Shown: positions 17,628 through 57,803, numbered from the stretch's first letter. The stretch: DNA of 64,000 bases from Candidatus Dojkabacteria bacterium (GCA_030583845.1 CP129478.1:907686-971685), one strand, 5' to 3'. Notes: generated by a model from the letters alone, not told the origin. Translations and numbers: made by a program.

Positions 17628-19185
17628 CTATTTATTAAGCAGGCTTTGGCCACGCATCTCGTCTGGCTTGCTGATACCCATCAGATGCAGTACAGTCGGC
17701 GCAATATCGGATAGCTTGCCGAATCGCATATTTACCTTTGGTAAATTCTTGTCTACAACAATAAATGGAACAGGGTTTAACGAGTGCTCAGTATCTACTA
17801 CATCCTCGGTACCAAATTTGATTACCTCTTCTACATTTCCGTGATCTGCGGTTAATATTACTGTGCCGCCCATTGCTGTAAATCTATCTACCAAGCGGTT
17901 TACACAGTAATCAGTCGCTTGAATAGCCTTGATACAGGCCTCCATATTACCTGTGTGCCCGACCATGTCTGGATTGGCCAGATTAAGCAGGATAAAGTCA
18001 TATGTTCCAGTCTTAATCCTTGCCTCCAAGGCCTCGGTCACTTGCAAAGCACTCATTTCTGGCTTCAAATCGTAAGTTGGCACGTTGGGTGACTGGATCT
18101 CAATACGATCTTCGCCTGGGTATTTCACATCTAGGCCTCCATTAAAGAAATATGTCACGTGTGGGAATTTCTCAGATTCGGCAATCCTAAGTTGGCGTAG
18201 GTTGCTTTCAGAGAGCATGCGTCCAAGTGACAGATTCACATACTCTTTGGGCATAATAACCTTATTAGGGAAATCTTTCTTGTATGCCACCATGCCAGCG
18301 TAGTAGAGATTCTGGAATGCCACTGTCTGGAAATGCATAAAATCTGACTGGATGAAAGCCTCAGATAGCTGTGTCGCTCGGTCAGATCGGAAATTTAGAA
18401 AGAGCACCACATCGTTTTCAACAATCATCGGGATATCGCTCCCGTCAGGGATAATCGTGGGCTCGATAAACTCATCGGTCTTGCCGGCAGTATACGAGGC
18501 ATTTAACCCGCTCTGCCAATCTGCTACCTTTGTTCCTGCTCCCTTGGTAAGCATCGAGTAAGCCTGCTCGGTTCGCTCCCACTTCTCATTTCTATCCATT
18601 GCAAGAGATCTTCCTACTAAGTGACGCGATATGCCCAAGCCCTGTATTCGTGATCTGGGTCTGGAGGGTATTTAGGTATTGCGCTGCTGATTGTGGGCCT
18701 GTGTCTCGACCGTCGGTAAAAGCATGGAAATATAGCTTGCCCTTATAGCCCTTGTTGAGGAAAAACTGCTGGGTTGCTATGAAGTGGTCAATATGGGCGT
18801 GGACAGATCCGGTGCTTGCACACCCCATTATATGGATCTTAGAGCCGTAGCTTTGCGCATGGTTGAGCGCTTCGGTAAGTGTCTGGTTGGTAAAAAAGGC
18901 TCCAGTTGATATGCTTTTATTGATCTTTGGGAGATTTTGCAAGATTATCTTGCCGGCACCAATATTTAAGTGTCCAACTTCACTGTTGCCATATGTGTCC
19001 TCGGGCAAGCCCACAGCCTCGCCAGAGGCATCTAGATATGTGTGCGGATATCCATCCCAAAGCGAGATAAGATTTTTCGGGTGTGCGAGAGAGACAGCGT
19101 TCCCTTTGCCGTCTGGTGCTGCGCCAAGCCCATCCATGATTATTAACATCACCTTCTTCTTTTGGAGTTGGCCGTCGGGGTGCAT
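17628..19185 (-). pseudogene. gpmI: 2,3-bisphosphoglycerate-independent phosphoglycerate mutase split by a +1 frameshift near 18615-18640
   Basis: The N-terminal fragment ORF 18592..19185 carries 'IIMDGLG…GNSEVGHLNIGAGKII' and ends '…GLGHIASL|SRKISCNG*'. The C-terminal fragment ORF 17628..18638 begins '…HLVGRSLAMDRNEKWER…'. Skipping one nucleotide reconstitutes the conserved junction 'G.IASL-VGRSLAMDR', so the sequence has one extra base. Confidence 0.75.
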
Positions 19186-21696: not shown

Positions 21697-22287
21697 ATGC
21701 AAACAGAACGGGGTAAACGTCTCGCATACAAAATAACGCTCACAGCACTTCTCTTTCTCGCCATCATCACTCTGGCTCGACCAGCACACTCTCGTGAGCA
21801 GATCGATAACCTCGTTGACCAGGGAATCGAGCAAGGCAAAGAAGCTGTCAGCGACCTCAAAGAACGACTCCAGAGAGTAAACAACTACTTCCTCATAGGT
21901 CGTGATCTCGAAATTAATACAGACGTTAACGGAAACCTCATAGTCTTCTCAAATAGCGTTGATTTTGAAGGCAATATCAATGGAGGTATGCTTATCTTTG
22001 CAAAAGAGGTGACGATTAAGGGTAAAGTGAGCGACAATTTGTGGCTGTTTGCCAGGGAGGTCGATCTTGATGGAGATATTGATGGTACCGCAAGGATTTT
22101 TACCACTAGCTTAAACCTAAAAGGGAATATAGCTGGCAATCTATTCGCAATTACCTCTGAATCAACCTTTGATGGCAATGTCACGGGCAGGGTGATTGTG
22201 ATCGGTAAAAATGTTGGAGTCGATTCGGAAGATCTGAAAGGAAGATTCTACATACTCTATAAGCGTCCAAAATCAGGAGATAATTAA
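21697..22287 (+). CDS. Bactofilin-like (polymer-forming cytoskeletal, beta-helical repeat) protein with N-terminal hydrophobic segment
   Basis: 196 aa; repeated 'G.I.G.L…V.L.G.I.G' units (…FEGNINGGMLIFAKEVTIKGKVSDNLWLFAREVDLDGDIDGTARIF…) typical of the bactofilin/DUF583 beta-helix. Confidence 0.5.
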   Translation: MQTERGKRLAYKITLTALLFLAIITLARPAHSREQIDNLVDQGIEQGKEAVSDLKERLQRVNNYFLIGRDLEINTDVNGNLIVFSNSVDFEGNINGGMLIFAKEVTIKGKVSDNLWLFAREVDLDGDIDGTARIFTTSLNLKGNIAGNLFAITSESTFDGNVTGRVIVIGKNVGVDSEDLKGRFYILYKRPKSGDN

Positions 22288-22304: not shown

Positions 22305-22781
22305 ATGAATACAGACCTATTAATTGCAAGAACGATAATAGTATTGACCTCAACAGTGGGCTATCTATTTATTGCGGCACTGCTTTGGAAATTTGCACCG
22401 GTAAAGCTGAAGGTGATGTCGGATAAGCTCGGGGGATTAAGCGAGGCTGTAAGTAGCCTAATTGTTGGCTTGATCGCCATCCCTGTAGCTATTGTCGCGG
22501 CGATCATGTTCCTGTTTACCTTTGTAGGATGGCCAGTTGTACTGATTATGCTCGGATTCTTCATTGTTTTCACGCAGATCTGTTTCCCTGTGGTTGGATA
22601 CTCGTTGGGCAGGAGGGTTGTGCCTAAAGCACAGATATTCTGGCAGATGGCTGCTGGAATTCTACTCCTTGAATTAATTGCATTGATCCCTGCAGTCGGC
22701 GAGTTCATCTGGTTTGTCGTATTCTGCCTTACGATCGGTGCTGCTTTCAGGATGAAGGGGCAGTTTATGAGCGCGAAGTAA
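22305..22781 (+). CDS. Small polytopic membrane protein
   Basis: 158 aa with 4 predicted TM helices, directly downstream of the bactofilin-like gene. Confidence 0.4.
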   Translation: MNTDLLIARTIIVLTSTVGYLFIAALLWKFAPVKLKVMSDKLGGLSEAVSSLIVGLIAIPVAIVAAIMFLFTFVGWPVVLIMLGFFIVFTQICFPVVGYSLGRRVVPKAQIFWQMAAGILLLELIALIPAVGEFIWFVVFCLTIGAAFRMKGQFMSAK

Positions 22782-22820: not shown

Positions 22821-23750
22821 ATGGAAATCCCCGACAGGCTGAAAGGTCTCTATAAGCATTGGAGTAAGCACACTTTGGCGCAGGTCAAATATGACGAAAA
22901 GGTACTTATTGATTTAGAAGTGCTCGAGTCGATTCGCCAATTTGCAATTGAGAGAATGCTTGTGTGGGAGCGAAAAGAGAGCGGTAAGTCAGCACCTTTT
23001 ACGAAAGACCCGATACTACACAAGCAGCGTTTCTGTAATATCTACCGCGAGCTTGATCGCCAAACTATTGAAACTCATTTACTTCTCGAGTCCTTGCTCA
23101 GCACCCCAAGTGTGTGGCTTCTCAACTTGATGTATTGCAGGCTTGCGTGCAACCCAATAACAGTTAAAAATACTGGGCTGTTAAATTTTAATGAAAATGA
23201 AAATCTTAAAGTTTATCAGCGGCTTATAGAGCATCCACGACCAAAATATGGGACAGCATACGTCTTTCCGATTAATGCAATCGCCAAAACAGGGTTTCCA
23301 ACAAGAGAAGAGTTTTTCTGTCTCTATCTACCCAAGTTAGCCAGAAAGTTATGGGCAGAAATCGAGCAATTTAATGAAACCAGTGTAAACACGGCTTTAG
23401 AACGAATACTCCCACTGCTTGGAGTTAATCTCAAGTTTCATATGACCGAAGTGCTGATTGATGTTGCATATCAATTCCCTGAGAAAATTAATCTGCATAA
23501 AGATTTTCATATTGGACCTGGTGCAATTCCAACTCTGAAATTGCTCTCACACTCTGCTGATCCAGACGCTCTGCTTAATTACCTAGCCACGATCGAGTTA
23601 GAGGATTTCCCATATTTAACTTATAATGGGGTAGGAGTAGCTCTTTCGGCTGAGAACTGGGAAGGGATTGCATGCGAATATAGAAAATATTGCAACTATA
23701 AAGCCGGAAGGGGTAGAAGTAGGCTATACATACAGCCGCAACAGGGCTAA
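22821..23750 (+). CDS. Conserved-looking hypothetical protein (unrecognised family)
   Basis: 309 aa soluble protein, not low-complexity, with clear coding periodicity; motif 'HKQRFCNIYRELDRQTIETH'. I cannot assign a family. Confidence 0.5.
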   Translation: MEIPDRLKGLYKHWSKHTLAQVKYDEKVLIDLEVLESIRQFAIERMLVWERKESGKSAPFTKDPILHKQRFCNIYRELDRQTIETHLLLESLLSTPSVWLLNLMYCRLACNPITVKNTGLLNFNENENLKVYQRLIEHPRPKYGTAYVFPINAIAKTGFPTREEFFCLYLPKLARKLWAEIEQFNETSVNTALERILPLLGVNLKFHMTEVLIDVAYQFPEKINLHKDFHIGPGAIPTLKLLSHSADPDALLNYLATIELEDFPYLTYNGVGVALSAENWEGIACEYRKYCNYKAGRGRSRLYIQPQQG

Positions 23751-24496: not shown

Positions 24497-25219
24497 ATGA
24501 AAAAGATAGTTCTATCAGGCAAAGGTGGCGCAGGCAAAACAACAGTTGCTGCAGAGCTGACCAAGCTGCTTGCGAAGAAAGATAACAAACACCGTGTGCT
24601 CGTGGTCGATGCCGATGCAGCGATGACGCTCCCATTCGCACTGGGCATCAAGTCAAAGTGGGATGATCTAAAGCCACTTGGCGAATTTGAAACCGAAGAT
24701 GGTGAAGACACGGAGCGGGTGTTAGCCCAAATCCAGAAGGATTATGTGAAAAAGGTTGATCAAGATGGACTCCAGTTTGATTTCGCTTATATGGGTCATC
24801 ATAAGATGAATTCCTGTCTCTGTGGCTATAATTCGGCTTTAAACCTATTCTTAGACCTTGCGCGCGAGCATGACCTGTACGATTTTGCGATTGTAGATCG
24901 TGAAGCTGGGATAGAGCATCTTACGAGGAGTGTGTATGGCAAAGAAGACGACTACCTGATGCTTGTGAGCTGGCTCTCTCCGGATTATCTATCGGTGATA
25001 GAGCGAATTAATGACGTCGCCGATGTTATAGGCTCTACAGAAAAGCGGTTAATTATTGTAAACGATATTCTAGGTAGTGCAGACGATGATAGCTCGTCAG
25101 AAGCCATTGAGAAAGTTGGTCTTTCACGCTATCCATATACTATAATGAAGCGAAATAGTGATAAATCAGTGGATTCAAGGCTAATTAACGACATCGCACG
25201 CTTTATCGATATCGAATAG
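24497..25219 (+). CDS. CooC / MinD / ParA-family P-loop ATPase with CxC metal-binding motif
   Basis: 240 aa; deviant Walker A 'GKGGAGKTT' and 'NSCLCGYN' (a CxC, as in the nickel-binding CooC maturation ATPases). Confidence 0.7.
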   Translation: MKKIVLSGKGGAGKTTVAAELTKLLAKKDNKHRVLVVDADAAMTLPFALGIKSKWDDLKPLGEFETEDGEDTERVLAQIQKDYVKKVDQDGLQFDFAYMGHHKMNSCLCGYNSALNLFLDLAREHDLYDFAIVDREAGIEHLTRSVYGKEDDYLMLVSWLSPDYLSVIERINDVADVIGSTEKRLIIVNDILGSADDDSSSEAIEKVGLSRYPYTIMKRNSDKSVDSRLINDIARFIDIE

Positions 25220-25951
25220 GTGGACAAATACAAAAATCATGACAACTGGTCGCAGATTGCTAACAAGCTAACTGCTAAATCCTCGGCTGCTAGCTCGATT
25301 GCAATAAAGTCGAACCTTCTTGGCTCAGCTGATTATCCTTTCACTACGTCTGTGGAGCTGCACGAACTTATTATTGAAACGATACGATCTGTAAGTGAGG
25401 CTGAACTACTGCTGATAGAAAGCGAATTTAATGACGCAAGCTGGAGCCAGCTTCTTGCTGATAAGCCAGAAGTGATTTCATACTTGAAAAAGCACTCTGT
25501 GAAGTTGGTAAGAGCCAACAAAGAAGTCAAAATAGTAGTTGATGAGAGCTTGATAGCACCGCTTTATATCCCAAAAAGTTGGTATGATGCTCAGTTGCGA
25601 ATCAATATCAGCAATGTTGTGGTAAATAAGCACCACTCAGAGAGAAGCCTGCACAGCTCACTCTTAAATCTGGCTACAATTCTATATCGAAAAGATAATG
25701 ACTTTAGCAATTTCTCAAAGAAGGATTATCTTGCAGCTGCGCTGTTTGATCTGAAGAACCTTGATTCAGACGCGCAGGAGCTGCAAAAAAGCTTGCCTAT
25801 CCTCACAATTGTTGATGGGGTAGAGGTAGGTTACACAGACGAGCATTCGCCGTATACTCATGTTGAAAAGCTGGGCAGTTTGCTGGCAGGAGAGGATTTT
25901 AACGCCATTGATAGCGAGCTTCGCAGCCTGCTGAATATCAAAAAAAGATGA
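25220..25951 (+). CDS. Hypothetical protein, translationally coupled to the CooC-like ATPase
   Basis: 243 aa; the GTG start immediately follows the TAG of the upstream gene; no recognised domain. Confidence 0.4.
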   Translation: MDKYKNHDNWSQIANKLTAKSSAASSIAIKSNLLGSADYPFTTSVELHELIIETIRSVSEAELLLIESEFNDASWSQLLADKPEVISYLKKHSVKLVRANKEVKIVVDESLIAPLYIPKSWYDAQLRINISNVVVNKHHSERSLHSSLLNLATILYRKDNDFSNFSKKDYLAAALFDLKNLDSDAQELQKSLPILTIVDGVEVGYTDEHSPYTHVEKLGSLLAGEDFNAIDSELRSLLNIKKR

Positions 25952-27417
25952 AGAAAATCTTACTAATTACAATTCTCACATTGGTAATAGCGGCGCTACC
26001 GTTACTTTTGCCATCTAACAAAGCTGAGGCGCACCCTGTAGATGTCTCTTTTGCCATCATCAATGTCGCAGATGATAACCTGGGCAAAAGATTGCCGCTA
26101 AATGAGGCATACGGCTACGTGAGCATGAACTGGGTTACGGCAGCAGGCTTACTCGGTTTTACAGAAAATCCTGACGGTGCAGTTGAAGTCCTTGGCGAGA
26201 AAGAGCAATTTTTCAACGATTATTTCGCCGAAAAGCTCCAATTATCGAATAACGAGAAACAGTGCACACTATCTTCAGAGATGATCCCGGTGGAAGATTT
26301 TCAACTCTTCTACCTGAATGGCTTAGAATTCCATGTGAGGTTTGTTTGTGAGGATGATCTCGAGAATGTGCATATTAAAAACCGCATCCTGCTAGATGAA
26401 TTTCCAAATCAGACCAATGTTATGAGTGTATACGACCATGCCGGTGAGCTCCTTTACAGTGAAACGCTTGATTCTGAAAAAGACGAATTAGACATTAAGG
26501 TCGAGCGCGAGACAGAACAGGTCGAGGAAGCTGAGGAGGAACAGGAAGAGACAGCAACCGATTCGGCAGCACCTGGTGGATTCACACTTTATGGCAACAA
26601 CTTCATCGCAAATAAGCTAAAGAGCGCTGGTGATCGGACGATGGCTGGCTTTGCGAGCCTGCTTGATTCTGACAACCCATGGTCAAGGATCGGAATACTT
26701 CTGATCGTTGTAGTTCTAGGTGCTTTGCACAGCTTTGAGGGTGGACACAACAAGGTGATTCTTGCAACGATGATGATGAATAATGAAGTAAATCTAAGAG
26801 GAAGCATGATCTATGTCTTCATCTTCACACTGACACATATGTCAGACATCATTATCCTTGCCGTTGGATTGATAATCTTCAATCAGTACATCAACCTATA
26901 CGCTGCACTCCCATATGTTCAGCAATTCTCCATCGTAGCACTGCTAGTACTGTCGCTTTACATTACTGTGAAAGAGCTGATTGTGCTGGTGAAGAAGAAA
27001 AAGTCGGAGGGCAGGGTAAATGAAGTCGTGAGCGATACCGATGAGATTAGCGATCTATTCAAGACAGATAATGAGGTGGAATTAGCATTGGAATCGGCAA
27101 AGCCACATGCGAAGTCAAGAAGTAAGAAGCCTACAACATTTAAAGAGCAGTTTATGGTTGCGTTTGTAGCTGGATTGGCGCCATGTTTGACCGGCTGGAC
27201 GATATTTATCCTCATAGTAAGTTCTGGCTACATATGGCTGCTTCTGCCTGCAACGGTGGCGTTTGGTATAGGCGTCTTCATAGTATTGGCACTATTTGCG
27301 TTCCTAGTGGATAGATTTAAGGGAAAGTTGCTTAATCGTTACAGCTCATTCGCAGATTATGCACCGCTTGCGTCGGGAATTTTGCTACTGATTGTAACCC
27401 TGGTTTCGGTAGTATAG
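25948..27417 (+). CDS. Fusion of DUF1007-like periplasmic domain with NicO/RcnA-type nickel/cobalt permease
   Basis: 489 aa; signal peptide, then 'AEAHPVDVSF' (matching the DUF1007 'AHPHV' start), a roughly 230 aa soluble domain, then 6 TM helices carrying 'HSFEGGHNKV' (NicO 'HxxxPGHGK'-like) and 'GLAPCLTGW'. Confidence 0.55.
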   Translation: MKKILLITILTLVIAALPLLLPSNKAEAHPVDVSFAIINVADDNLGKRLPLNEAYGYVSMNWVTAAGLLGFTENPDGAVEVLGEKEQFFNDYFAEKLQLSNNEKQCTLSSEMIPVEDFQLFYLNGLEFHVRFVCEDDLENVHIKNRILLDEFPNQTNVMSVYDHAGELLYSETLDSEKDELDIKVERETEQVEEAEEEQEETATDSAAPGGFTLYGNNFIANKLKSAGDRTMAGFASLLDSDNPWSRIGILLIVVVLGALHSFEGGHNKVILATMMMNNEVNLRGSMIYVFIFTLTHMSDIIILAVGLIIFNQYINLYAALPYVQQFSIVALLVLSLYITVKELIVLVKKKKSEGRVNEVVSDTDEISDLFKTDNEVELALESAKPHAKSRSKKPTTFKEQFMVAFVAGLAPCLTGWTIFILIVSSGYIWLLLPATVAFGIGVFIVLALFAFLVDRFKGKLLNRYSSFADYAPLASGILLLIVTLVSVV

Positions 27418-28031: not shown

Positions 28032-29432
28032 ATGCCGGATTTCAAAGTACCACAAGTGGGGCCGGTCAGAGACGATCCGCAACCGGGTGGCACAATGAAC
28101 GTCGGACAGACCACTTCAAACAGCGCACCACAGCCTGACATCAAGCAGCCTGCACCGGCAACAGTCCAACCCTCAATGCAGCAGTCACAAGCTGCTCAAC
28201 CAATTGCAAACTCCCTTACAAGCTCACAGCCGCAAAGCAACTCTGTAGCGAGCCAGCCAGCAGCAGATAGCACTGGGGGAGATTTCCAAGATGACTTTGA
28301 TTGGGGTGCTGACCCATTTTCGGCACCACAGCCCATGGCTAGCACTCAGCAGCCAGTAAATAACAGCCAGCCTGCACCAATGGGTGGCGGTGGCTCGTTT
28401 GGAGGTGGTTGGGGATCACCGTGGGGAGGTGGCTCAGCTGGAGGCTGGGGAGATCCGTGGGGTGCACCAGCAGGCGGTCAGCAACCAGGACAGCAGAAGC
28501 GACTTACTCCACAGGAACGCGTCGAAATGATTGAGAGGGTGTATCAGCAGGTTTTGGTAAGAAAACCTGACACAAGAGATATCAACTATTATAAATACAG
28601 CACTCTCGGAGAGGAAGAAATTAAAAAGCAGCTGATCGACGGGAAAGAGCATAAGCAGCTAATCGAGGATGGGAGAAATTACAAGAAGTCTGAGGAGAGG
28701 GCAGAGCAGGCAGAGGCACGAGTCCGGATGCTTGAAGGGCAGGTTAAAGACCAGCTCGAAGAGTTTAGACATCTGACTGAGCTACTTGAAGAGAAGAACC
28801 GATTCATTCAGCGGCTTAGAAGCGAGAATGATGTCCAGTACGGATTCAAATCACCCACTTCAAACTCAATGGGCAACCCGAATCAATCTTACAATCTGAT
28901 GTCCACACCTTCTCAACCTGCGCCTGTACAGCAGCCGTCTCAGCCACAGGTAGCCGCGCCAATCACACAGCCCGCACCACAGATAGAGCCTCAGCCAATC
29001 GCACAGCCAGCGCCTCAGATAGAGCCACAGCAAATTCAACAGCCACAGGCGCAGTTCGAGCCTCAACAAATTCCGCAGCCAACTCCAGATTATGCAGCAG
29101 ATACTGCTCCTATTTCTCAAACAGTCCCAACTACTCAGACATCCCTTGAGCAATCAACACCATATGCTACACAAGGGGCAGTCCCTACAGCAGCCCCAGT
29201 AGCAGCTGGCCAGCACTTTTCAGCACCAGGATCAATTGAATCCGTTGATAGTGGGAATGCAGGAGCCTCATTTCCACAGGAAGAGGTGGACGAGCAGCTC
29301 CCTTTGGGTGCAAACCAGCCTGGGGTCGAGAGTGAAGATGATAATAGCGGTTGGGCCAGCAATGAGCCATCATCTGGTGCTTTGAAGCGTGTATTCGGCA
29401 AGCTTGCTTCGATTGTCTCCCCGGATCAATAG
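28032..29432 (+). CDS. Low-complexity Pro/Gln-rich protein with central DUF4214-like domain and Gly/Trp repeat
   Basis: 466 aa; 'GGGGSFGGGWGSPWGGGSAGGWGDPWG'; a DUF4214-like segment 'ERVYQQVLVRKPDTRDINYYKY'; a coiled-coil; and tandem 'QPAPQIEPQ' repeats. Confidence 0.5.
   Translation: MPDFKVPQVGPVRDDPQPGGTMNVGQTTSNSAPQPDIKQPAPATVQPSMQQSQAAQPIANSLTSSQPQSNSVASQPAADSTGGDFQDDFDWGADPFSAPQPMASTQQPVNNSQPAPMGGGGSFGGGWGSPWGGGSAGGWGDPWGAPAGGQQPGQQKRLTPQERVEMIERVYQQVLVRKPDTRDINYYKYSTLGEEEIKKQLIDGKEHKQLIEDGRNYKKSEERAEQAEARVRMLEGQVKDQLEEFRHLTELLEEKNRFIQRLRSENDVQYGFKSPTSNSMGNPNQSYNLMSTPSQPAPVQQPSQPQVAAPITQPAPQIEPQPIAQPAPQIEPQQIQQPQAQFEPQQIPQPTPDYAADTAPISQTVPTTQTSLEQSTPYATQGAVPTAAPVAAGQHFSAPGSIESVDSGNAGASFPQEEVDEQLPLGANQPGVESEDDNSGWASNEPSSGALKRVFGKLASIVSPDQ
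28968..29075 (+). repeat. Three imperfect 36-nt tandem repeats inside the PQ-rich CDS
   Basis: Units at 28968-29003, 29004-29039 and 29040-29075 encode QPAPQIEPQPIA, QPAPQIEPQQIQ and QPQAQFEPQQIP. Confidence 0.7.
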
Positions 29433-31713: not shown

Positions 31714-33644
31714 TTCTCTTTGTAGATTACTTTCTTAATTGCTTTGGCAACATTTACAGCTAACAGGGCCAGCATTAGGAATATGAATAGCGAGATCAGT
31801 TTAACAAATGTATCCCACCACCAGTAGTGCCTAATATTTACACTGTCCTCAAGAATATATGTACGCTCAGTGCCGTACAGAGAAACAATATTGAGGTCAC
31901 CTCTAAGTGCCGCAGAGCGATTCTTTGCAGCCAAATTTTCTTCTTCAATAACCAAGCTACCGGTTATCTCAATTTCTTGTCCAGGGAATATAAGAATACT
32001 TTTATCCTCTTCAAAGCTATTCTCTTTGAAATTATCCTCGAAGTCAAAACTCACACTACTGATGATGCTATTTCCATCATTATGAATCGTAAACTTTGCA
32101 CTAGATGCAGGGTTTAGTATAGAAGCCCCATCGATAATCTGGCTGCTGCTCGCCGAGAGAATTTCAGTAAAATTTCTATCTGTAAGACTCACCTCAATAT
32201 CTTCATTCAAGAAGAAACCAAGCTGTGGCTTAAATGGGTTGTAGCTCCTCGTAACGAAAGCAACGTGATCTTTAAACAGCGGGTCATACATTTGAATACC
32301 AGTGATCACCTCAATCACAGGATCCAGTACGATCCAGCCCTTCAGATTATCCCACACCTCAACCCAGCTATGGATAAATCCAGACTCGTATACTCCCGAG
32401 CTGTCTGAGATATAGCCCTGTGTCAGCCTGCTTGGGATTGAATAGGCTCTTAGAACTGCAATCAGGAAATCATTGTAGTCGGCAGCTGAAGCAATCGCTG
32501 GATTCTCTAGCACGCGCTTCCCTTGGCGGTAGTTGGTGGCTGTATCTAATTCATTTTGAGATCCGAGACGGTCGAGTACATATCGATACAAGATGTTCGC
32601 AAGCTTTGCTTGCTCTTCTGTTGACAATTTTCTAGCATCTCGCTCAAATGATTGAACAATGCCACCGTTTTGTATGTACAAATCGATGCGCTTTAGCTCT
32701 GTCTCGTCAGAGAGGTCCCAGTAATCCGCTTTTTTCGTGCTGTTTTCAAACTGCTCAAACTGAAGTGTACCACCCGTTCCCTCTTCAAATTTGATCAAGC
32801 CCTCAATCTTTACCTTTAGCTCGCTCTCTGCCGGAACTGTATAGCGGAGTGAGAGATTGCCCTCTGGATCCATAAGTACCTTTGAAGGTGGCTCAGTTAC
32901 CTCATCGATCAGCAGCTTCTGCCCATTGCCTATCTTAGGTATATTTACTTCAAATGTTTTCTGGATCTCATCTGTATTTACGAATTGCTTATTGATGCTA
33001 AATTCATAAACAAACTGGTCGGAACCGGAAATCAGTAGCGAGTCGTTCTCTGGTGAGGCGAAGTTAATTATCTTCTGGTTGTTCTGCTCAATGATTGTCA
33101 TCCCCTTAAGCACAGGAATGAGTAGGTCATCAAAAGGTGAGTTAAGTGTAATCTTCACGTGCTCGGAAGTCGTAGAGCTTATGTGGAGAGGTAATTCACT
33201 GCTCTCGCCCTCCTGCATAAACTTTCCTTTGCTAAACGTTATCCTAAACTGTGCTCCTCTGGTTCGATCAATAGTGAGGTTGTTTAGGTCGACGACAAGC
33301 CGTGTTCCTTCTGATACATCGTTGTGACTTACTGTATACGCACGGTCACCCTTTTTCACACCGACATTATCGATCTGCTTAAATGGGAGGGTAATGGTGA
33401 AAAATTTAACAACATTTGCTGCCCCTTCCTCTGGTATGACATGTAGCTGAATCTCTGTAGAAAGTGTTCCCTCGCTGTTGATCGTATAGATGATTGAAGT
33501 AGTTTGTGTAAAGCCTGCAGCACTATCTTCAGAGGAAGCATATAAGTGAGTGGGGAGGAGAGATGTGAATAGGGCGAGTGCAAGTAAAATCGCTGAGCTA
33601 CACTTTGATAGAATTTTCTTTAAATAGCCAGTCGAACTTGTCAT
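31710..33644 (-). CDS. Secreted transglutaminase-like (papain-fold) domain protein lacking the nucleophile Cys, with C-terminal TM anchor (operon gene 2)
   Basis: 644 aa; signal peptide and an N-terminal beta-rich domain. Core '…AADYNDFLIAVLRAYSIPSRLTQGY…GFIHSWVEVWDNLKGWIVLDP' matches the TGase-core 'G.C.dfA…lRa.GIPAR…HaWvEv…GW…DP', but there is no Cys in the nucleophile segment. A C-terminal TM helix follows. Confidence 0.55.
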   Translation of the reverse strand: MTSSTGYLKKILSKCSSAILLALALFTSLLPTHLYASSEDSAAGFTQTTSIIYTINSEGTLSTEIQLHVIPEEGAANVVKFFTITLPFKQIDNVGVKKGDRAYTVSHNDVSEGTRLVVDLNNLTIDRTRGAQFRITFSKGKFMQEGESSELPLHISSTTSEHVKITLNSPFDDLLIPVLKGMTIIEQNNQKIINFASPENDSLLISGSDQFVYEFSINKQFVNTDEIQKTFEVNIPKIGNGQKLLIDEVTEPPSKVLMDPEGNLSLRYTVPAESELKVKIEGLIKFEEGTGGTLQFEQFENSTKKADYWDLSDETELKRIDLYIQNGGIVQSFERDARKLSTEEQAKLANILYRYVLDRLGSQNELDTATNYRQGKRVLENPAIASAADYNDFLIAVLRAYSIPSRLTQGYISDSSGVYESGFIHSWVEVWDNLKGWIVLDPVIEVITGIQMYDPLFKDHVAFVTRSYNPFKPQLGFFLNEDIEVSLTDRNFTEILSASSSQIIDGASILNPASSAKFTIHNDGNSIISSVSFDFEDNFKENSFEEDKSILIFPGQEIEITGSLVIEEENLAAKNRSAALRGDLNIVSLYGTERTYILEDSVNIRHYWWWDTFVKLISLFIFLMLALLAVNVAKAIKKVIYKEK

Positions 33645-34326
33645 ATTTGCGGAGTATCTGTTTTACGATCGGTGTCTTAAGGGTAATGTTATTCTTCACC
33701 ACAACCTCATCCCATCTAATCTTCCTAACCTTCGTTATGTCTCTATAGCGTGGATTCTGAACGACTTCCTGCTTTGCATTTTTTCTAATAACATAATATG
33801 CCATACCCTGCATGGAGTCTAGCTGTGATACATGTTTTGTGACTGAACTATAAGCCTCTACGACAATCATTGCAGTATTACGAGTATTGACTAGGGTAAC
33901 ATCGTAGCCTGGAGGGACGATAAACTTCTGCTCTCTCTTAATTTTTGAATAGATAATATCTGAATCATCTTGATGGAACTTCTGCATAATGACACTTCCA
34001 GTCCCGTAAATGACTTCCATGATTTTGGGATGTGTGGGGAGACGTGTGGCTCTTGTTTTTACAAACTCGATGCCTGCAAAATTGGCTGGGATCACATAGA
34101 TATTTACCTTGAGACCCTTAGTTTTGAAGATATTGTCGTGATCAAGCCCCATGTACTTGTAATAAAAGACCTCTGGGGATGTAAGCTCCTCGTTTAAGAG
34201 TTGTGGGCGAATCTGGTCAATTTCTACTTTGCCAACCTCCTCAAACTGCATATCTTGTGTTGTAAGTTGGTAATCGTCTAGATACAACGAGAACCCGGCA
34301 GATTTTCTCAGGTCTACTTTCGCCAT
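33598..34326 (-). CDS. Cupin protein with similarity to archaeal-type glucose-6-phosphate isomerase (cPGI); metal ligands not conserved (operon gene 1)
   Basis: 242 aa; 'PEVFYYKY…NIYVIPANFAGIEF…FIVPPGYDVTLVNT…VVQNPRYRD' parallels Pyrococcus cPGI 'PVVYEVYAV…TVLYPGKVGKEF…VYVPPYWAHRTVN…VVDNPRWK'. The GHFH/His ligand positions read TRATRL / TL here. I am recalling the cPGI comparison from memory rather than from an alignment. Confidence 0.4.
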   Translation of the reverse strand: MAKVDLRKSAGFSLYLDDYQLTTQDMQFEEVGKVEIDQIRPQLLNEELTSPEVFYYKYMGLDHDNIFKTKGLKVNIYVIPANFAGIEFVKTRATRLPTHPKIMEVIYGTGSVIMQKFHQDDSDIIYSKIKREQKFIVPPGYDVTLVNTRNTAMIVVEAYSSVTKHVSQLDSMQGMAYYVIRKNAKQEVVQNPRYRDITKVRKIRWDEVVVKNNITLKTPIVKQILRKYDKFDWLFKENSIKV

Positions 34327-55477: not shown

Positions 55478-56032
55478 ATGACACCTCAAGAATCAAAAAA
55501 CATTCAAATAATTTTCGCTTCCGCCTCTGGCAATGTTGCAGCAGTGTGTGAAAAGGTAGCCGAAATTCTCAATGCAAACGGCTTTGTCGCTCAACTTCAT
55601 CGGGCAGAATCAACAAAGTTTGAACTAATTGCAGCAAACCAGCTTTTTATCTTTGCCACTTCTACATGGGAGCATGGTGTAATTAGCCCATATTTCGAGC
55701 CACTTCTAAAAGAGATATCGAAAAATAGTGTGGAAGGTAAGTATGCTGGGTTTATTGGATTAGGTGATACAAGGTATGAGCCTGTTCTTTTCTGTGGTGG
55801 AATGATTACGCTGCAAGAGACATTTGAAAAACAGGGTGGAACTTCGATCTCAGTACCGCTGAAGATCAACGGGGACCCATACTCACTGCTTGATAATATG
55901 GTGACTGATTGGACCAAGAAATTTATTAGTGACCTAAGCAATTTTAATTACCGCAAGGCCGAAAATGATGCCAAAAGTGTTGTAAATAATATCGAAGAGA
56001 AGGAAGAGGCGCCGAAAGACATTTCAATATGA
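55478..56032 (+). CDS. Flavodoxin-like protein
   Basis: 184 aa; 'IQIIFASASGNVAAVCEKVAE' FMN-binding N-terminus and a flavodoxin fold length. Its stop overlaps the start of the OFOR gene. Confidence 0.6.
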   Translation: MTPQESKNIQIIFASASGNVAAVCEKVAEILNANGFVAQLHRAESTKFELIAANQLFIFATSTWEHGVISPYFEPLLKEISKNSVEGKYAGFIGLGDTRYEPVLFCGGMITLQETFEKQGGTSISVPLKINGDPYSLLDNMVTDWTKKFISDLSNFNYRKAENDAKSVVNNIEEKEEAPKDISI

Positions 56033-57803
56033 GCAAGTATCGACGTACAGTTGTAAAAGTAGGAGGTGAGTCAGGCCAAGGGATCAACTCGGTTGGTGAG
56101 ATTTTGAGTGATGCTTTAAAGGGAGTCGGGTATAAAGTCTTTGCATATCGCGAGTATCCCTCACTTATTAAAGGTGGCGTCGCAGCATTTCAGATTGAAT
56201 GGTCAGATTTGCCGATAAGTAGCCCAAGCGCGAAGTGTGACCTACTTGTATGTATAAGCCGAGCTACGATATATGAGTATCTTCAAACCCTTAACAGTGA
56301 CGGCCTCTTGATTCACTCACTCCCCAAAGTTCACTTCAATAAGGAGGAGGAGAAATTCATCCAGGAAAACAGTATCAAAGTACACTACGTCAAAGCCGAT
56401 GAATTAGCGCTTCTTGAGGGCGGCAATAAGATAATGGCTAATGTTGTACTGATCGGACTTATATGGAAGCTAATTGGTGAGAGCTATGAGAGCATCGAAG
56501 GCTCAGTACTAGAGGTATTTGGTAAGAAAGAGCAGTTTATTGAAGGAAACAAAAAATCGCTAGCTGCAGGGTACAATTATGAAGACGCGGAGATGAAGAT
56601 GTCGGTAGATGGCTATGCTAAGGATGCAGCTTGGGCAGAGAGCTATGTGCTAACAGGAAGTCATGCATTCTCTTTGGGGACGCTCTCCGCAGGCATGAAA
56701 GCATACTATTCCTATCCGATGACCCCATCATCACCAGTTCTGAGCTATCTTGCTGAGGTTGCTAATAAGAAAGATCTGATAGTGAAGCAGGTAGAGGATG
56801 AGATATCGGCTGTGCAGATGGCTATAGGCAGTATGTTTATGGGTGCGCGAGCGATGACTGGCACCTCTGGTGGGGGTTTTGACCTGATGACGGAGACAAT
56901 CTCAAATGCAGGCATAGCAGAGATCCCACTGGTAATCTTGCTGGCTCAGAGGCATGGTGCCGCAACCGGATTGCCAACATGGACCGGCTCATCTGACTCT
57001 GAACCTGGCTCTGTATGCTGGCCACGGCGAATTTCCCCGCTGTGTTGTGGCCGTTAGTGATCCAATCTCTGCCTATACCAGAATCCAGGAGGCATTCAAC
57101 ATAGCTGAAAAGTATCAGCTTCCAGTGATAATTATGACCGATAAGAGCATCGCCGAATCGCTCTATAATATTGATAAACTGCCACCAGCCGATTGAGATT
57201 GAACGAGGATTAGTCGGAAAAGATGAGCTGTCGCAGCTTGATTCTGGGAGCAGGTATAAGATTACTGATAGCGGCATATCACCAAGATGGCTGCCTGGAC
57301 AATCAGGGCCGACCTATAACGCAAACAGCGATGAGCACGATGTAGATGGCGATAGCACAGAGGCGGCTGATGTCACAAAGTCTATGGTAGATAAGCGACT
57401 TCGCAAGCTAGATCAACTAGCACAAGAGATACCAGATCCGGAGCTGTATGGCACAGCGGAAGCTGACATCTCGTTTATCGGATGGGGGAGTGTGAAAACA
57501 AATATTGTTGACCTGATGCAGCTAATAAACAATGGCCAGAACAGCTTCACAGCAAATTATCTGCACTACGAGTATCTATGGCCATTTAAAACCGAAACGT
57601 TAATGCAATTTATAGATAAGGCAAAGAAGGTGGTAATTGTCGAAAATAACGCAACTGCCCAGCTTGCCGGCCTGATAGCCAAAGAGGCTCATGTGAGCAT
57701 CTCCAATAAGCTGCTTAAGTATGATGGTAGACCATTCTTCTTGGAAGAGCTGGTACAATTTGTAGAAAAAGAGCTAGGTAAAAAAGTAATTATTAATAAA
57801 TAA
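56029..57803 (+). pseudogene. 2-oxoacid (pyruvate):ferredoxin oxidoreductase fused gamma-alpha subunit, interrupted by two +1 frameshifts (near 56995-57005 and 57185-57195)
   Basis: Frame A (56029..57057) has the gamma domain '…VKVGGESGQGINSVG…' and the start of alpha '…GSHAFSLGTLSAGMKAYYSYPMTPSS…AQRHGAATGLPTWTGSSD'. Frame B (56954..57196) continues 'LNLALYAGHGEFPRCVVAVSDP…QLPVIIMTDKSIAE'. Frame C (57171..57803) continues '…IEIERGLVGKD…'. Each junction needs one base skipped. Confidence 0.75.

What the first reader, a model, noticed from the sequence alone, without database searches (positions are those of the whole stretch)
24497..27417. Putative metal (Ni/Co?) trafficking module: CooC-type CxC ATPase + unknown protein + fused DUF1007/NicO permease
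Three co-directional genes are tightly linked; the second starts with GTG directly after the stop of the first. The first is a MinD/ParA-fold ATPase with deviant Walker A 'GKGGAGKTT' and a 'CLC' motif, as in nickel-inserting CooC. The third is a fused periplasmic DUF1007-like domain ('AHPVDV…') joined to a NicO/RcnA-like 6-TM permease with 'HSFEGGHNK'. No CODH, hydrogenase or urease lies in the window. The cargo metal and the client enzyme are therefore unknown. The fused DUF1007-NicO architecture and the 243-aa middle protein have no assigned function.
Basis: partly seen in the sequence, partly recalled or inferred. Interest (0 to 1): 0.6.

Follow-up and report, generated by a model that had tools for sequence, protein, structure and literature searches.

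The report
Nickel-type uptake and delivery gene trio
A tiny-genome (CPR) bacterium carries a tight three-gene unit: a metal-catching membrane importer, a CooC-type metal-inserting ATPase, and a histidine-rich protein with the fold of nickel-dependent lactate racemase. That third protein, not a distant enzyme, is probably where the metal ends up, which gives a first functional clue for the uncharacterised DUF362 family.

Summary
Three co-directional, translationally coupled genes lie at 24497-27417 in a Candidatus Dojkabacteria genome.

- **Gene A (240 aa)** is a CooC-type ATPase. CooC1 is by far its best solved relative, over nearly the full length, and the CxC and switch motifs are invariant.
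- **Gene C (489 aa)** has a signal peptide that should leave an invariant histidine as the first residue of the mature protein. This sits on a DUF6702 ("anglerase"-like) outer domain, not DUF1007. That domain is fused to a 6-TM permease homologous to E. coli RcnA (hhalign 95.7%), although Pfam NicO is not matched.
Its AlphaFold model is confident (pLDDT 95), and its only solved structural neighbours are LarA nickel-pincer enzymes. It has no cysteine and an invariant His/Asp/Glu cluster.

Across nine lineages B is always present, with A in seven and with C in five. More distant CooC homologues sit beside CODH/ACS.

My best reading (about 0.45) is that C imports nickel or a similar metal, A inserts it using ATP, and B is the acceptor. 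The metal, the transport direction and B's chemistry are all inferred. This would be a new variant of known metallocentre-assembly systems. Interest is moderate to high.

The parts
24497..25219 (+). Gene A: CooC-type (MinD/ParA-fold, SIMIBI class) metal-inserting ATPase, 240 aa
   Evidence: Pfam CbiA matches at 1e-12. The best PDB relative is CooC1 3kje (E 6e-10 for the single sequence; E 3.6e-15 for the subfamily profile over residues 3-214). G8-K9-G10-G11-x-G13-K14-x-T16, C107-x-C109 and D134-x-E136-A137-G138-x-E140-...-R144 are invariant across the subfamily and generic CooCs.
24518..24544 (+). Deviant Walker A motif GKGGAGKTT (A residues 8-16)
   Evidence: Read directly from the sequence. 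The glycines, lysines and T16 are invariant in alignment A3.
24797..24823 (+). Putative metal site of A: subfamily-specific H101-H102, then C107-L-C109 (HHKMNSCLC)
   Evidence: The CxC aligns with the metal-binding CxC of CooC1. The HH pair is invariant in the 8-member subfamily and absent from generic CooC homologues.
25220..25951 (+). Gene B: divergent DUF362 protein with a LarA-like fold, 243 aa, cytoplasmic and cysteine-free. Proposed metal acceptor.
   Evidence: Pfam DUF362 matches at 3.5e-10 (40.7 bits against a cut-off of 24, profile positions 1-196 of 200), and 11 of 17 family members match. The AF2 model has pLDDT 95.4. The top 18 Foldseek PDB hits are all LarA-family enzymes. The family is rare: 18 hits among 1.84 billion representatives, one of them spurious.
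25625..25636 (+). B His cluster H136-K-H138-H139, at the end of a beta strand and its hairpin turn
   Evidence: H138 and H139 are invariant and H136 is at least 90% conserved in 17 sequences. Secondary structure is from the model.
25814..25846 (+). B residues D199 to E208-H209, in the second hairpin
   Evidence: D199 and H209 are invariant and E208 is at least 90% conserved. E208-H209 lie in the turn between strands 195-207 and 210-224.
25948..26031 (+). C signal peptide (residues 1-28). Predicted cleavage after AEA exposes His29 as the first mature residue.
   Evidence: The sequence shows MKK, a hydrophobic core and A-E-A|H. His29 is invariant and sits directly after the hydrophobic leader in all 9 family members.
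26032..26502 (+). C extracytoplasmic DUF6702 / anglerase-like metal-capture domain (residues 29 to about 185)
   Evidence: Pfam DUF6702 matches at 5.9e-6 (26.8 bits against a cut-off of 24), and 4 of 9 members match. The model of this domain has pLDDT 75-88. The best PDB fold hits are the Ang-1 domain of HupE/UreJ-2 (9gce) and then the zinc-binding protein ZrgA. A characterised DUF6702 binds Ni2+ with Kd 5.6 pM (PMC12537917). C106 and C134 are invariant and may form a disulfide.
26503..26640 (+). Acidic, low-complexity linker between the outer domain and the permease (residues about 186-231)
   Evidence: pLDDT is below 50 for residues 189-230. Length and sequence vary among homologues.
26641..27417 (+). 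C permease domain: 6-TM RcnA/NicO-superfamily transporter (residues 232-489, plus the stop codon)
   Evidence: NCBIfam NF007454 (RcnA) matches at 4.8e-9 over residues 232-485, and 9 of 9 members match. hhalign against E. coli RcnA gives 95.7% probability and E 8e-9. The model shows six long helices.
26728..26754 (+). TM1 motif HSFEGGHNK (C residues 261-269)
   Evidence: It aligns with RcnA HGLEPGHSK. H261, S262, E264, G265, G266, H267, N268 and K269 are invariant.
27178..27186 (+). TM4 motif A411-P412-C413
   Evidence: It aligns with the RcnA I-P-C motif and is invariant.

Best explanation
The three genes form one operon for acquiring a transition metal, most likely Ni2+, and delivering it to a dedicated protein.

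1. **Capture and import (C).** After signal-peptide cleavage, gene C exposes an N-terminal histidine on a DUF6702/'anglerase'-type outer domain. That domain captures the ion and hands it to the fused RcnA-type 6-TM channel (HxxEGGHNK in TM1, THMSD in TM2, APC in TM4), which carries it into the cytoplasm.
2. **Binding by the ATPase (A).** Gene A is a CooC-type ATPase. It binds the ion at its CxC motif, supplemented here by a subfamily-specific HH pair. By analogy with CooC1, this happens at an ATP-dependent dimer interface.
3. **Insertion into B.** ATP hydrolysis releases the ion into gene B. B is a cysteine-free DUF362 protein with a LarA-like fold. Its invariant H136/H138/H139, D199 and E208/H209 would form an all-N/O metal site.
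4. **Role of B.** B is the end-user: a metalloenzyme of unknown chemistry.

Shown here: the homology assignments, the fold of B, the invariant residues, and the gene linkage with B as the constant partner.

Inferred: the identity of the metal, import rather than export, physical A-B and B-C contacts, and B being an enzyme rather than a carrier.
For: **Linkage**
- The genes are translationally coupled: 0-nt A/B spacing and a 4-nt B/C overlap.
- The arrangement is conserved across nine lineages with different flanks. A-B-C occurs three times (window; L002-6/L009-11; L020/21). B-C occurs twice (L001, L014). A-B occurs four times (L007, L008, L015, L022/23).
- B is present in 9 of 9 lineages, and A, where present, always lies directly upstream of it.

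**A is CooC-type**.

**A's usual neighbour is its client.** More distant CooC homologues lie next to their known clients, CODH and ACS. The constant neighbour of this subfamily is therefore the natural client candidate.

**B**
- It meets the DUF362 threshold.
- Its model is confident, and its only significant solved-structure neighbours are LarA nickel-pincer enzymes.
- DUF362 and the LarA N-terminal domain share Pfam clan CL0471 (PMC11770544).
- It has invariant His/Asp/Glu plus K30, R127 and W121, and no cysteine.
- One homologue carries a C-terminal HHHHEHHHEHYHE tail.

**C**
- It is homologous to RcnA.
- Its outer domain is DUF6702-like with an invariant His1 and an Ang-1-like fold.
- A characterised DUF6702 prefers Ni2+ (Kd 5.6 pM, against nM for Co and Cu). 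N-terminal-His domains fused to permeases have been proposed as metal-uptake devices (PMC12537917).
- C lacks the His-rich cytoplasmic loop of the exporter RcnA.
Against: - No metal has been measured. Each nickel link is by homology to families that also handle Co, Zn or Cu. The Ang-1 structure has Cu bound, ZrgA binds Zn, and the M. maripaludis preprint calls the CooC CxC a zinc-binding motif.
- RcnA, the closest characterised permease, is an exporter.
- Two lineages have B-C without an adjacent A, and four have A-B without an adjacent C. No single pairing is obligatory.
- His-rich tails are typical of metallochaperones rather than client enzymes.
- I could not map B's conserved residues onto the LarA active site, because hhalign was not significant and model coordinates cannot be superposed with these tools.
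- The model of C is low-confidence overall (pLDDT 58).
- The rest of the roughly 1 Mb genome could not be searched, so a classical nickel enzyme may exist elsewhere.
Confidence: 0.45

Rival explanations
1. This is the same trafficking chain, but B is not the end-user. B would be a cytoplasmic metallochaperone or metal store that receives the ion from the permease. With or without the ATPase, it would pass the ion to one or more client enzymes encoded elsewhere in the genome, for example a group 3 [NiFe] hydrogenase, glyoxalase I or a cupin-type enzyme.
For: - B is the hub between C and A.
- One B homologue has a His-rich C-terminal tail like UreE, HypB or CooJ.
- B-C pairs exist without A.
- A metal-dependent cupin-type phosphoglucose isomerase lies 6 kb downstream, in both the window and the syntenic locus L001.
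Against: - B has an enzyme-type alpha/beta fold (LarA-like). Its many invariant non-ligand residues (K30, N32, P40, W121, R127, N150) look like a substrate pocket rather than a simple metal-binding patch.
- Known nickel chaperones are small or are NTPase-fused proteins of other folds.
- No candidate client is linked in any of the nine contexts.
Confidence: 0.25
2. This is a metal efflux or detoxification unit. C would be an RcnA-like exporter whose fused outer domain plays the role of periplasmic RcnB. A and B would feed cytoplasmic excess metal to it. One version of this is an ArsA/ArsB/ArsD-like arrangement, in which the MinD-fold ATPase energises a secondary carrier and B acts as the chaperone.
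For: - The closest characterised permease, E. coli RcnA, exports Ni and Co and works with a periplasmic partner, RcnB.
- ArsA belongs to the same ATPase superfamily and appears among the weaker hits.
- In L015 the A-B pair lies 3-7 kb from genes for a CopA-like P-type ATPase, DUF305 and an HMA-domain protein.
Against: - The outer domain is not RcnB-like. It is a high-affinity N-terminal-His capture domain of a type linked to uptake.
- RcnA's cytoplasmic His-rich loop is missing.
- A matches CooC over its full length but ArsA only at the P-loop.
- A-B pairs occur without any adjacent permease in four lineages.
- Genome-reduced symbiont-like CPR bacteria are more likely to scavenge trace metals than to need to expel them (inference).
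Confidence: 0.12
3. The architecture is the same but the cargo is a different metal (Zn2+, Co2+ or Cu2+). B would be a zinc or cobalt N/O-ligand hydrolase-type protein, and nickel would not be involved.
For: - B's ligand set is entirely His/Asp/Glu with no cysteine, which is typical of Zn, Co, Mn or Fe hydrolases.
- Fold neighbours of the outer domain bind Cu (9gce) and Zn (ZrgA).
- The characterised DUF6702 also binds Co and Cu at nM affinity.
- The M. maripaludis preprint calls the CooC CxC a zinc-binding motif.
Against: Four independent homology links point first to nickel: CooC (Ni insertase), LarA (Ni-pincer enzyme), RcnA (Ni/Co) and DUF6702 (pM affinity for Ni). No Zur, B12 or NiCo riboswitch or other regulatory clue was found either way.
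Confidence: 0.13
4. The adjacency has no shared function. These would be three unrelated genes packed together in a compact genome.
For: CPR genomes are gene-dense and many neighbouring genes are functionally unrelated. Flanking genes such as the SDR, FKBP and RNase HII differ between lineages.
Against: The same order, with start/stop overlaps, persists at 35-45% protein identity while the flanks change completely. A and B belong to rare subfamilies found almost only next to each other.
Confidence: 0.05

Closest known systems
CooC / AcsF nickel-insertion ATPases of CODH and acetyl-CoA synthase (CooC1 of Carboxydothermus hydrogenoformans, PDB 3kje)
   Same: A has the same MinD-type fold and deviant Walker A. 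The CxC metal motif and the D-x-E-A-G-x-E-H-L-x-R switch II region align over nearly the whole protein. Like CooC, A is encoded directly next to a putative client.
   Different: The neighbour is a DUF362 protein, not CODH or ACS, which the outgroup homologues do have as neighbours. No CODH is in the window. This subfamily adds an invariant HH pair five residues before the CxC, and a WLS.DY motif.
LarA lactate racemase superfamily (nickel-pincer nucleotide enzymes; Pfam DUF2088, clan CL0471)
   Same: LarA-family enzymes are the only significant solved-structure neighbours of B (top 18 Foldseek hits, TM about 0.45-0.59 normalised to B). DUF362 is in the same Pfam clan. The conserved histidines sit at strand ends.
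   Different: B is about half the size (243 aa against about 420-450). No family member hits DUF2088. No sequence-level alignment to LarA was obtained. No LarB, LarC or LarE cofactor-synthesis genes are nearby. The metal is presumably bound directly by protein side chains rather than through the NPN cofactor.
DUF362 (PF04015), an uncharacterised family often fused to 4Fe-4S domains
   Same: B scores above the Pfam gathering threshold over the full profile length, and 11 of 17 relatives also match.
   Different: This is a very small, divergent branch: 18 hits among 1.84 billion representatives, one of them spurious. It has no Fe-S domain and no cysteine, and it is specifically linked to a CooC-type ATPase and a metal permease. 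No function for DUF362 appears in the searchable literature.
'Anglerase'-permease fusions (Ang-1 or Ang-2 fused to HupE/UreJ-2) and stand-alone DUF6702 nickel binders (Nat Commun 2025, PMC12537917)
   Same: C has a signal peptide that exposes an invariant N-terminal histidine on a beta-rich outer domain, a flexible linker, and then a metal permease in one polypeptide. It matches Pfam DUF6702.
   Different: The permease is RcnA/NicO-type, not HupE/UreJ-2. That paper does not mention NicO or RcnA. The DUF6702 match is partial (profile positions 59-130 of 141) and is seen in only 4 of 9 members.
E. coli RcnA (Ni/Co exporter) and the NicO/COG2215 permeases
   Same: Six TM helices. hhalign gives 95.7% probability over 234 columns, with the HxxE.GH.K (TM1) and PC (TM4) motifs aligned.
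   Different: C scores far below the NF007454 cut-off (35.8 against 195 bits). Pfam NicO is not hit. The His-rich cytoplasmic loop is replaced by a K/E/D-rich loop with an invariant KTDN motif. The likely direction is import.
Urease UreG/UreE/UreF/UreD and hydrogenase HypA/HypB nickel-delivery systems
   Same: The logic is the same: a SIMIBI-class NTPase couples nucleotide hydrolysis to nickel insertion into a client, often encoded next to a nickel transporter. This rests on established knowledge of those pathways.
   Different: The NTPase subfamily is different (CooC-type ATPase, not a G3E GTPase), the client fold is different, and no scaffold proteins were recognised.

Membership tests
CooC-type ATPase | MinD/ParA-fold with deviant Walker A (GKGGxGK[ST]) including the signature lysine | tested here: met
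   GKGGAGKTT is at residues 8-16 and is invariant in alignment A3. Pfam CbiA matches at 1e-12.
CooC-type ATPase | Conserved CxC metal-binding motif aligned with that of CooC1 | tested here: met
   C107-L-C109 aligns with the CooC1 C-Y-C motif in the phmmer and hmmsearch alignments. It is invariant in 15 of 15 sequences.
CooC-type ATPase | Closer to CooC than to MinD, Mrp, ArsA or Get3 over the full length | tested here: met
   The subfamily profile hits CooC1 at E 3.6e-15 over residues 3-214. MinD hits at 4e-9 over residues 5-54 only.
CooC-type ATPase | Encoded with, and acting on, CODH or ACS | tested here: not met
   No CODH or ACS is in the window or in any of the nine A/B/C contexts. Outgroup CooCs do sit beside Prismane and CdhC genes.
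CooC-type ATPase | ATP-dependent nickel binding and release | not testable with these tools
   Needs biochemistry.
DUF362 (PF04015) | Pfam profile match above the gathering score over most of the profile | tested here: met
   40.7 bits against a cut-off of 24, covering profile positions 1-196 of 200. 11 of 17 relatives match.
LarA superfamily (DUF2088) | Sequence-profile membership (PF09861) and the two-domain, roughly 420-aa architecture | tested here: not met
   No DUF2088 hit in any of 17 members at E<=1. B is 243 aa. hhalign against LarA gives 0.2% probability.
LarA superfamily (DUF2088) | Shared fold | tested here: met
   The top 18 Foldseek PDB hits are all LarA-family, with E from 3e-5 to 3e-3 and probability 0.97-1.00. 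The model has pLDDT 95.4.
LarA superfamily (DUF2088) | NPN-tethering Lys184, Ni-ligand His200 and catalytic His108/His174 equivalents | tested here: inconclusive
   The LarA sequence and numbering were verified, but no reliable residue alignment was obtained. B has invariant H138/H139/H209 and K30 in a different spacing.
LarA superfamily (DUF2088) | Accompanied by the LarB/LarC/LarE cofactor-synthesis genes | tested here: inconclusive
   None is in the 64-kb window or in the related loci. The rest of the genome could not be searched.
RcnA / NicO permease | Profile similarity to RcnA or NicO | tested here: inconclusive
   NF007454 is hit by 9 of 9 members over its full length, but at 35.8 bits against a cut-off of 195. 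hhalign against E. coli RcnA gives 95.7%. Pfam NicO PF03824 is not hit at E<=1, and DsbD_2 from the same superfamily is hit instead. The result is homologous to RcnA, but not a member at subfamily level.
RcnA / NicO permease | Signature H-x2-E-x-G-H-x-K in TM1 and P-C in TM4 | tested here: met
   HSFEGGHNK aligns with HGLEPGHSK, and APC aligns with IPC. Both are invariant.
RcnA / NicO permease | His-rich cytoplasmic loop between TM3 and TM4, as in RcnA | tested here: not met
   The loop has no His run. It is K/E/D-rich with an invariant KTDN motif.
DUF1007 (PF06226) periplasmic partner of NicO | Pfam profile match | tested here: not met
   No hit in any of the 9 family members at E<=1.
DUF6702 / anglerase-type N-terminal-His metal binder | Pfam DUF6702 match | tested here: met
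   26.8 bits against a cut-off of 24, E 5.9e-6, partial coverage (profile positions 59-130 of 141). 4 of 9 members match, best 9e-8.
DUF6702 / anglerase-type N-terminal-His metal binder | Histidine as the first residue after signal-peptide cleavage | tested here: met
   His29 follows an A-E-A cleavage motif and is invariant in 9 of 9 members. The cleavage site itself is predicted by eye, not by a dedicated tool.
DUF6702 / anglerase-type N-terminal-His metal binder | Beta-sandwich fold like Ang-1, fused by a flexible linker to a permease | tested here: met
   The top Foldseek hit is 9gce, the Ang-1 domain (E 1.4e-4). The domain has pLDDT 75-88 and a disordered linker. The permease class differs: RcnA-type, not HupE/UreJ-2.
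DUF6702 / anglerase-type N-terminal-His metal binder | Measured high-affinity Ni, Cu or Co binding | not testable with these tools
   This is known only for PaDUF6702, RbAng-1a and MmAng-2a (PMC12537917).

The most novel reading that the evidence does not exclude
B and its relatives would be a new class of metalloenzyme, probably nickel-dependent, in the LarA/DUF362 clan. The metal would be bound directly by a His/Asp/Glu cluster rather than through the nickel-pincer nucleotide. It would be installed by a dedicated CooC-type ATPase. That would make B the first client of the CooC family outside CODH and ACS, and the first functional handle on DUF362. It would be supplied by a previously undescribed fusion of an anglerase-type domain to an RcnA-type importer, in genome-reduced CPR bacteria that keep few cofactor pathways.
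Probability: 0.3. Interest if true: 0.8.

Novelty: new variant of a known kind. Interest (0 to 1): 0.62.

Why it matters
- **DUF362.** This is a large family with no known function. It shares a Pfam clan with the nickel-pincer enzyme LarA. A branch of it that is locked to a CooC-type insertase and a nickel-type importer is a concrete, testable clue that DUF362 proteins are metalloproteins whose metal centre needs active assembly.
- **CooC.** The CooC family is so far known only as the maturase of CODH and ACS. A non-CODH client would widen the scope of ATP-driven nickel insertion.
- **CPR bacteria.** These bacteria have minimal genomes, so keeping a three-gene metal module implies an important but unrecognised metal-dependent reaction in their metabolism.
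- **Anglerases.** The fusion of an N-terminal-His capture domain to an RcnA-type permease extends the recently proposed 'anglerase' uptake principle to a second transporter class.

Tried and rejected
- **Word-indexed homologue search with B** found only B itself. The exhaustive representative search was needed.
I used the A-subfamily alignment instead. It found only one species-representative genome and three close metagenome loci.
- **PDB sequence search with the B profile** returned only His-tag artefacts.
- **hhalign of the B family against the verified LarA sequence** was not significant. The hoped-for mapping of the His cluster onto LarA H108/H174/K184/H200 failed.
- **ZrgA and DUF1007.** I initially recalled ZrgA as a DUF1007 protein partnered with a NicO-type permease. 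In the ZrgA paper a term search found no mention of DUF1007, and the paper describes a MacB-like ABC partner. I dropped that link and kept ZrgA only as a fold neighbour.
- **P0026**, a 1373-aa hit to B with 10 matched stretches, is a repetitive surface protein and not a homologue.
- **AF2 of full-length C** was poor (pLDDT 58), so I drew no inference about how the outer domain docks on the channel.
- **Promoter and terminator scan** gave nothing above shuffled expectation.
- **Rfam search** found no riboswitch in the window or in seven related loci that could name the metal.
- **SDR and 5-hmdU-kinase-like genes upstream, and the FKBP gene downstream,** were considered as module members and rejected. 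They are syntenic only in the closest relative, L001, and absent in the other lineages.

Full report
**Source and observation**

The window comes from a Candidatus Dojkabacteria (CPR/WS6) metagenome-assembled genome, on a contig of 1,036,382 bp. The three ORFs are where the finding puts them. A is 24497-25219 (240 aa). B is 25220-25951 (243 aa), and its GTG start is the base right after A's TAG stop. C is 25948-27417 (489 aa), and its ATG overlaps B's TGA stop as ATGA. The quoted motifs are all present. I surveyed with Pfam every window ORF of 196 aa or more that is not a shadow of a longer opposite-strand gene, plus several shorter ones. The survey shows ordinary CPR housekeeping and fermentative genes: DnaE, UvrB and UvrC, MutL, NrdD and NrdG, 2-oxoacid:ferredoxin oxidoreductase subunits, ADP-forming acetyl-CoA synthetase, and Fe/Mn SOD. 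There is no CODH, hydrogenase or urease.

**Gene A**

The best solved relative of A is the nickel-insertion ATPase CooC1 (3kje). It matches at E 6e-10 for the single sequence. A profile of the eight-member subfamily matches it at E 3.6e-15 over residues 3-214. MinD, ArsA, Get3 and Mrp-type proteins match only the first 50 or so residues, the P-loop region. The deviant Walker A, C107-x-C109 and the D-x-E-A-G-x-E...R switch region are invariant, both in the close subfamily and in generic CooC homologues. The subfamily adds an invariant H101-H102 pair five residues before the CxC. Its nearest outgroup homologues (about 30% identity) lie beside CODH (Prismane) and ACS (CdhC) genes. That is the classical arrangement, in which the ATPase is encoded next to its client.

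**Gene B**

It in fact scores above the Pfam threshold for DUF362 over the whole profile (40.7 against 24 bits), and 11 of 17 relatives do as well. The family branch is rare. An exhaustive HMMER scan of 1.84 billion cluster representatives returned 18 hits at E<=1e-3. One of these is a spurious repetitive surface protein.

The alignment of 17 members shows invariant P40, W121, R127, H138, H139, D199 and H209, and near-invariant P118, H136 and E208. Among the closer members, K30, N32, E67, E69 and N150 are also invariant. B contains no cysteine at all. One homologue ends in HHHHEHHHEHYHE.

An AlphaFold2 model built on this alignment is very confident (pLDDT 95.4, pTM 0.92). Its top 18 Foldseek PDB matches are all lactate racemase (LarA) family enzymes, which use the nickel-pincer nucleotide cofactor (E 3e-5 to 3e-3). 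This fits with DUF362 and the LarA N-terminal domain sharing Pfam clan CL0471 (PMC11770544).

B is nonetheless not a LarA family member. It is half the size, it does not hit DUF2088, and it does not align to the verified LarA sequence at sequence-profile level. No function for DUF362 turned up in the literature library.

**Gene C**

The C-terminal 250 or so residues form six long helices. All nine family members match the NCBIfam RcnA model over its full length, though far below the curated cut-off. hhalign against E. coli RcnA (b2106, fetched) gives 95.7% probability over 234 columns. In that alignment HSFEGGHNK aligns with HGLEPGHSK, and APC with IPC. RcnA's cytoplasmic His-rich loop is replaced by a K/E/D-rich loop with an invariant KTDN motif. 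Pfam NicO is not hit, and DsbD_2 from the same superfamily is hit instead.

The N-terminal part is not DUF1007, which gets no hit in any member. It matches DUF6702. In all nine members a histidine directly follows the signal peptide. Only the outer domain of the C model is usable (pLDDT 75-88). Its best solved neighbours are the Cu-bound Ang-1 'anglerase' domain of a HupE/UreJ-2 permease (9gce) and the zinc-binding protein ZrgA.

A 2025 paper (PMC12537917) showed that a DUF6702 protein binds Ni2+ through its N-terminal histidine with Kd 5.6 pM, against nM affinities for Co and Cu. The same paper proposed that N-terminal-His domains fused to permeases 'fish' for metal ions and feed them to the channel. 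Gene C has that architecture, but with an RcnA-type rather than a HupE/UreJ-type channel. That combination is not mentioned in the paper.

**Co-occurrence**

I searched all fetched loci with family HMMs. Nine distinct lineages give the following arrangements.

| Arrangement | Lineages | Loci |
|---|---|---|
| A-B-C | 3 | window; L002-6/L009-11 (flanked by DnaE and RNase HII; one MAG labelled Saccharibacteria); L020/21 |
| B-C, no adjacent A | 2 | L001 (67% identical C, otherwise syntenic with the window); L014 |
| A-B, no adjacent C | 4 | L007, L008, L015, L022/23 |

The gene gaps range from a 19-nt overlap to a 20-nt spacer. B is therefore the constant member, and A, where present, is always immediately upstream of it. 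Only one of 185,579 species-representative genomes carries the A subfamily. The module is rare. The lineages that carry a taxon label are CPR bacteria; the others are unlabelled metagenome contigs.

**Interpretation**

Four independent homology links point to nickel-type chemistry: CooC, the LarA fold, RcnA and DUF6702. In addition, CooC-family genes normally sit beside their client. Together these make the following the most economical reading. C captures and imports the ion, A binds it at the CxC/HH site and releases it on ATP hydrolysis, and B receives it in its all-N/O His/Asp/Glu site. I put about 0.45 on B being the end-user metalloenzyme. I put about 0.25 on B being a chaperone or store for an unlinked client, which the His-rich tail of one homologue favours. 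I give smaller weights to an efflux or ArsAB-like pump, which RcnA's exporter role favours. The high-affinity capture domain, the missing His-rich loop and the A-B pairs without a permease argue against that reading. A different cargo metal (Zn, Co or Cu) remains quite possible whichever mechanism holds. Chance adjacency is very unlikely. The homology, the fold, the conservation and the linkage are shown. The metal, the direction of transport, the protein contacts and B's chemistry are inferred.

**Novelty**

Each part belongs to a known superfamily, and the overall logic (transporter, NTPase insertase, acceptor) is that of the known nickel-delivery systems. I therefore rate it a new variant of a known kind. 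What is new is the pairing of a CooC-type ATPase with a DUF362/LarA-fold protein, and the fusion of an anglerase-type domain to an RcnA-type permease. I found neither in the literature library.

**Limits**

- The rest of the genome could not be searched for classical nickel enzymes.
- Two fold libraries were unavailable.
- Model coordinates could not be superposed on LarA.
- No regulatory element naming the metal was found.

Noticed in passing
window 17628-19185 (- strand): The cofactor-independent phosphoglycerate mutase (iPGM) is split into two overlapping ORFs. ORF 18592-19185 carries the start of the Metalloenzyme domain and the first half of iPGM_N. ORF 17628-18638 carries the second half of iPGM_N and the rest of the Metalloenzyme domain. 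This could be a frameshift, a pseudogene or an assembly error in a glycolytic gene.
   Followed up: no
window 22821-23750 (+); also L001 3503-4417: A 309-aa protein matches the helical domain of 5-hydroxymethyl-dU DNA kinase (PF18723, E 4e-18). That domain is known from phage DNA hypermodification. Here it is in a CPR chromosome and is conserved in the syntenic relative.
   Followed up: no
P0017 (B homologue, 247 aa), C-terminus: One B-family member ends in a histidine-rich tail, GHHHHEHHHEHYHE, like those of nickel chaperones such as UreE, HypB and CooJ.
   Followed up: partly
L015 215-4479: In one lineage, three metal-homeostasis genes lie 3-7 kb upstream of the A-B pair: a DUF305 protein, an HMA-domain P-type ATPase (CopA-like), and a fusion of an HMA domain to a DsbD_2-type membrane protein.
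   Followed up: no
L002 12917-13846; L005 10529-11458; L006 12823-13752: A 309-aa FmdE-domain protein (PF02663) is conserved about 3.5 kb downstream of the A-B-C cluster in the second lineage. Whether it has any link to the module is unknown.
   Followed up: no
window 33598-34326 (-); L001 13521-14252: A cupin-type glucose-6-phosphate isomerase (PF06560), which belongs to a metal-dependent enzyme family, lies about 6 kb downstream of the cluster, in both the window and the syntenic relative.
   Followed up: no
window 28032-29432 (+): A 466-aa protein is rich in Q, P and S and has low-complexity regions. It lies in the only stretch of the window with raised GC (0.497 against about 0.44) and has no convincing Pfam match.
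   Followed up: no
window 21697-22287 and 22305-22781 (+): A weak bactofilin-like protein (PF04519, E 5e-4, below threshold) is followed by a 158-aa multi-TM protein. The pair is conserved in L001.
   Followed up: no
C residues about 345-400 (window 26980-27147): The cytoplasmic loop that replaces RcnA's His-rich loop carries an invariant K372-T373-x-N375 motif (within F/L-K-T-D/E-N) and an invariant E400-Q401 pair. It could be a docking site for B or A.
   Followed up: no
window 56029-57803 (+): The 2-oxoacid:ferredoxin oxidoreductase alpha-type subunit appears as two ORFs separated by about 110 nt. ORF 56029-57057 carries POR and POR_N, and ORF 57171-57803 carries PFOR_II. This may be a natural split or a frameshift.
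   Followed up: no
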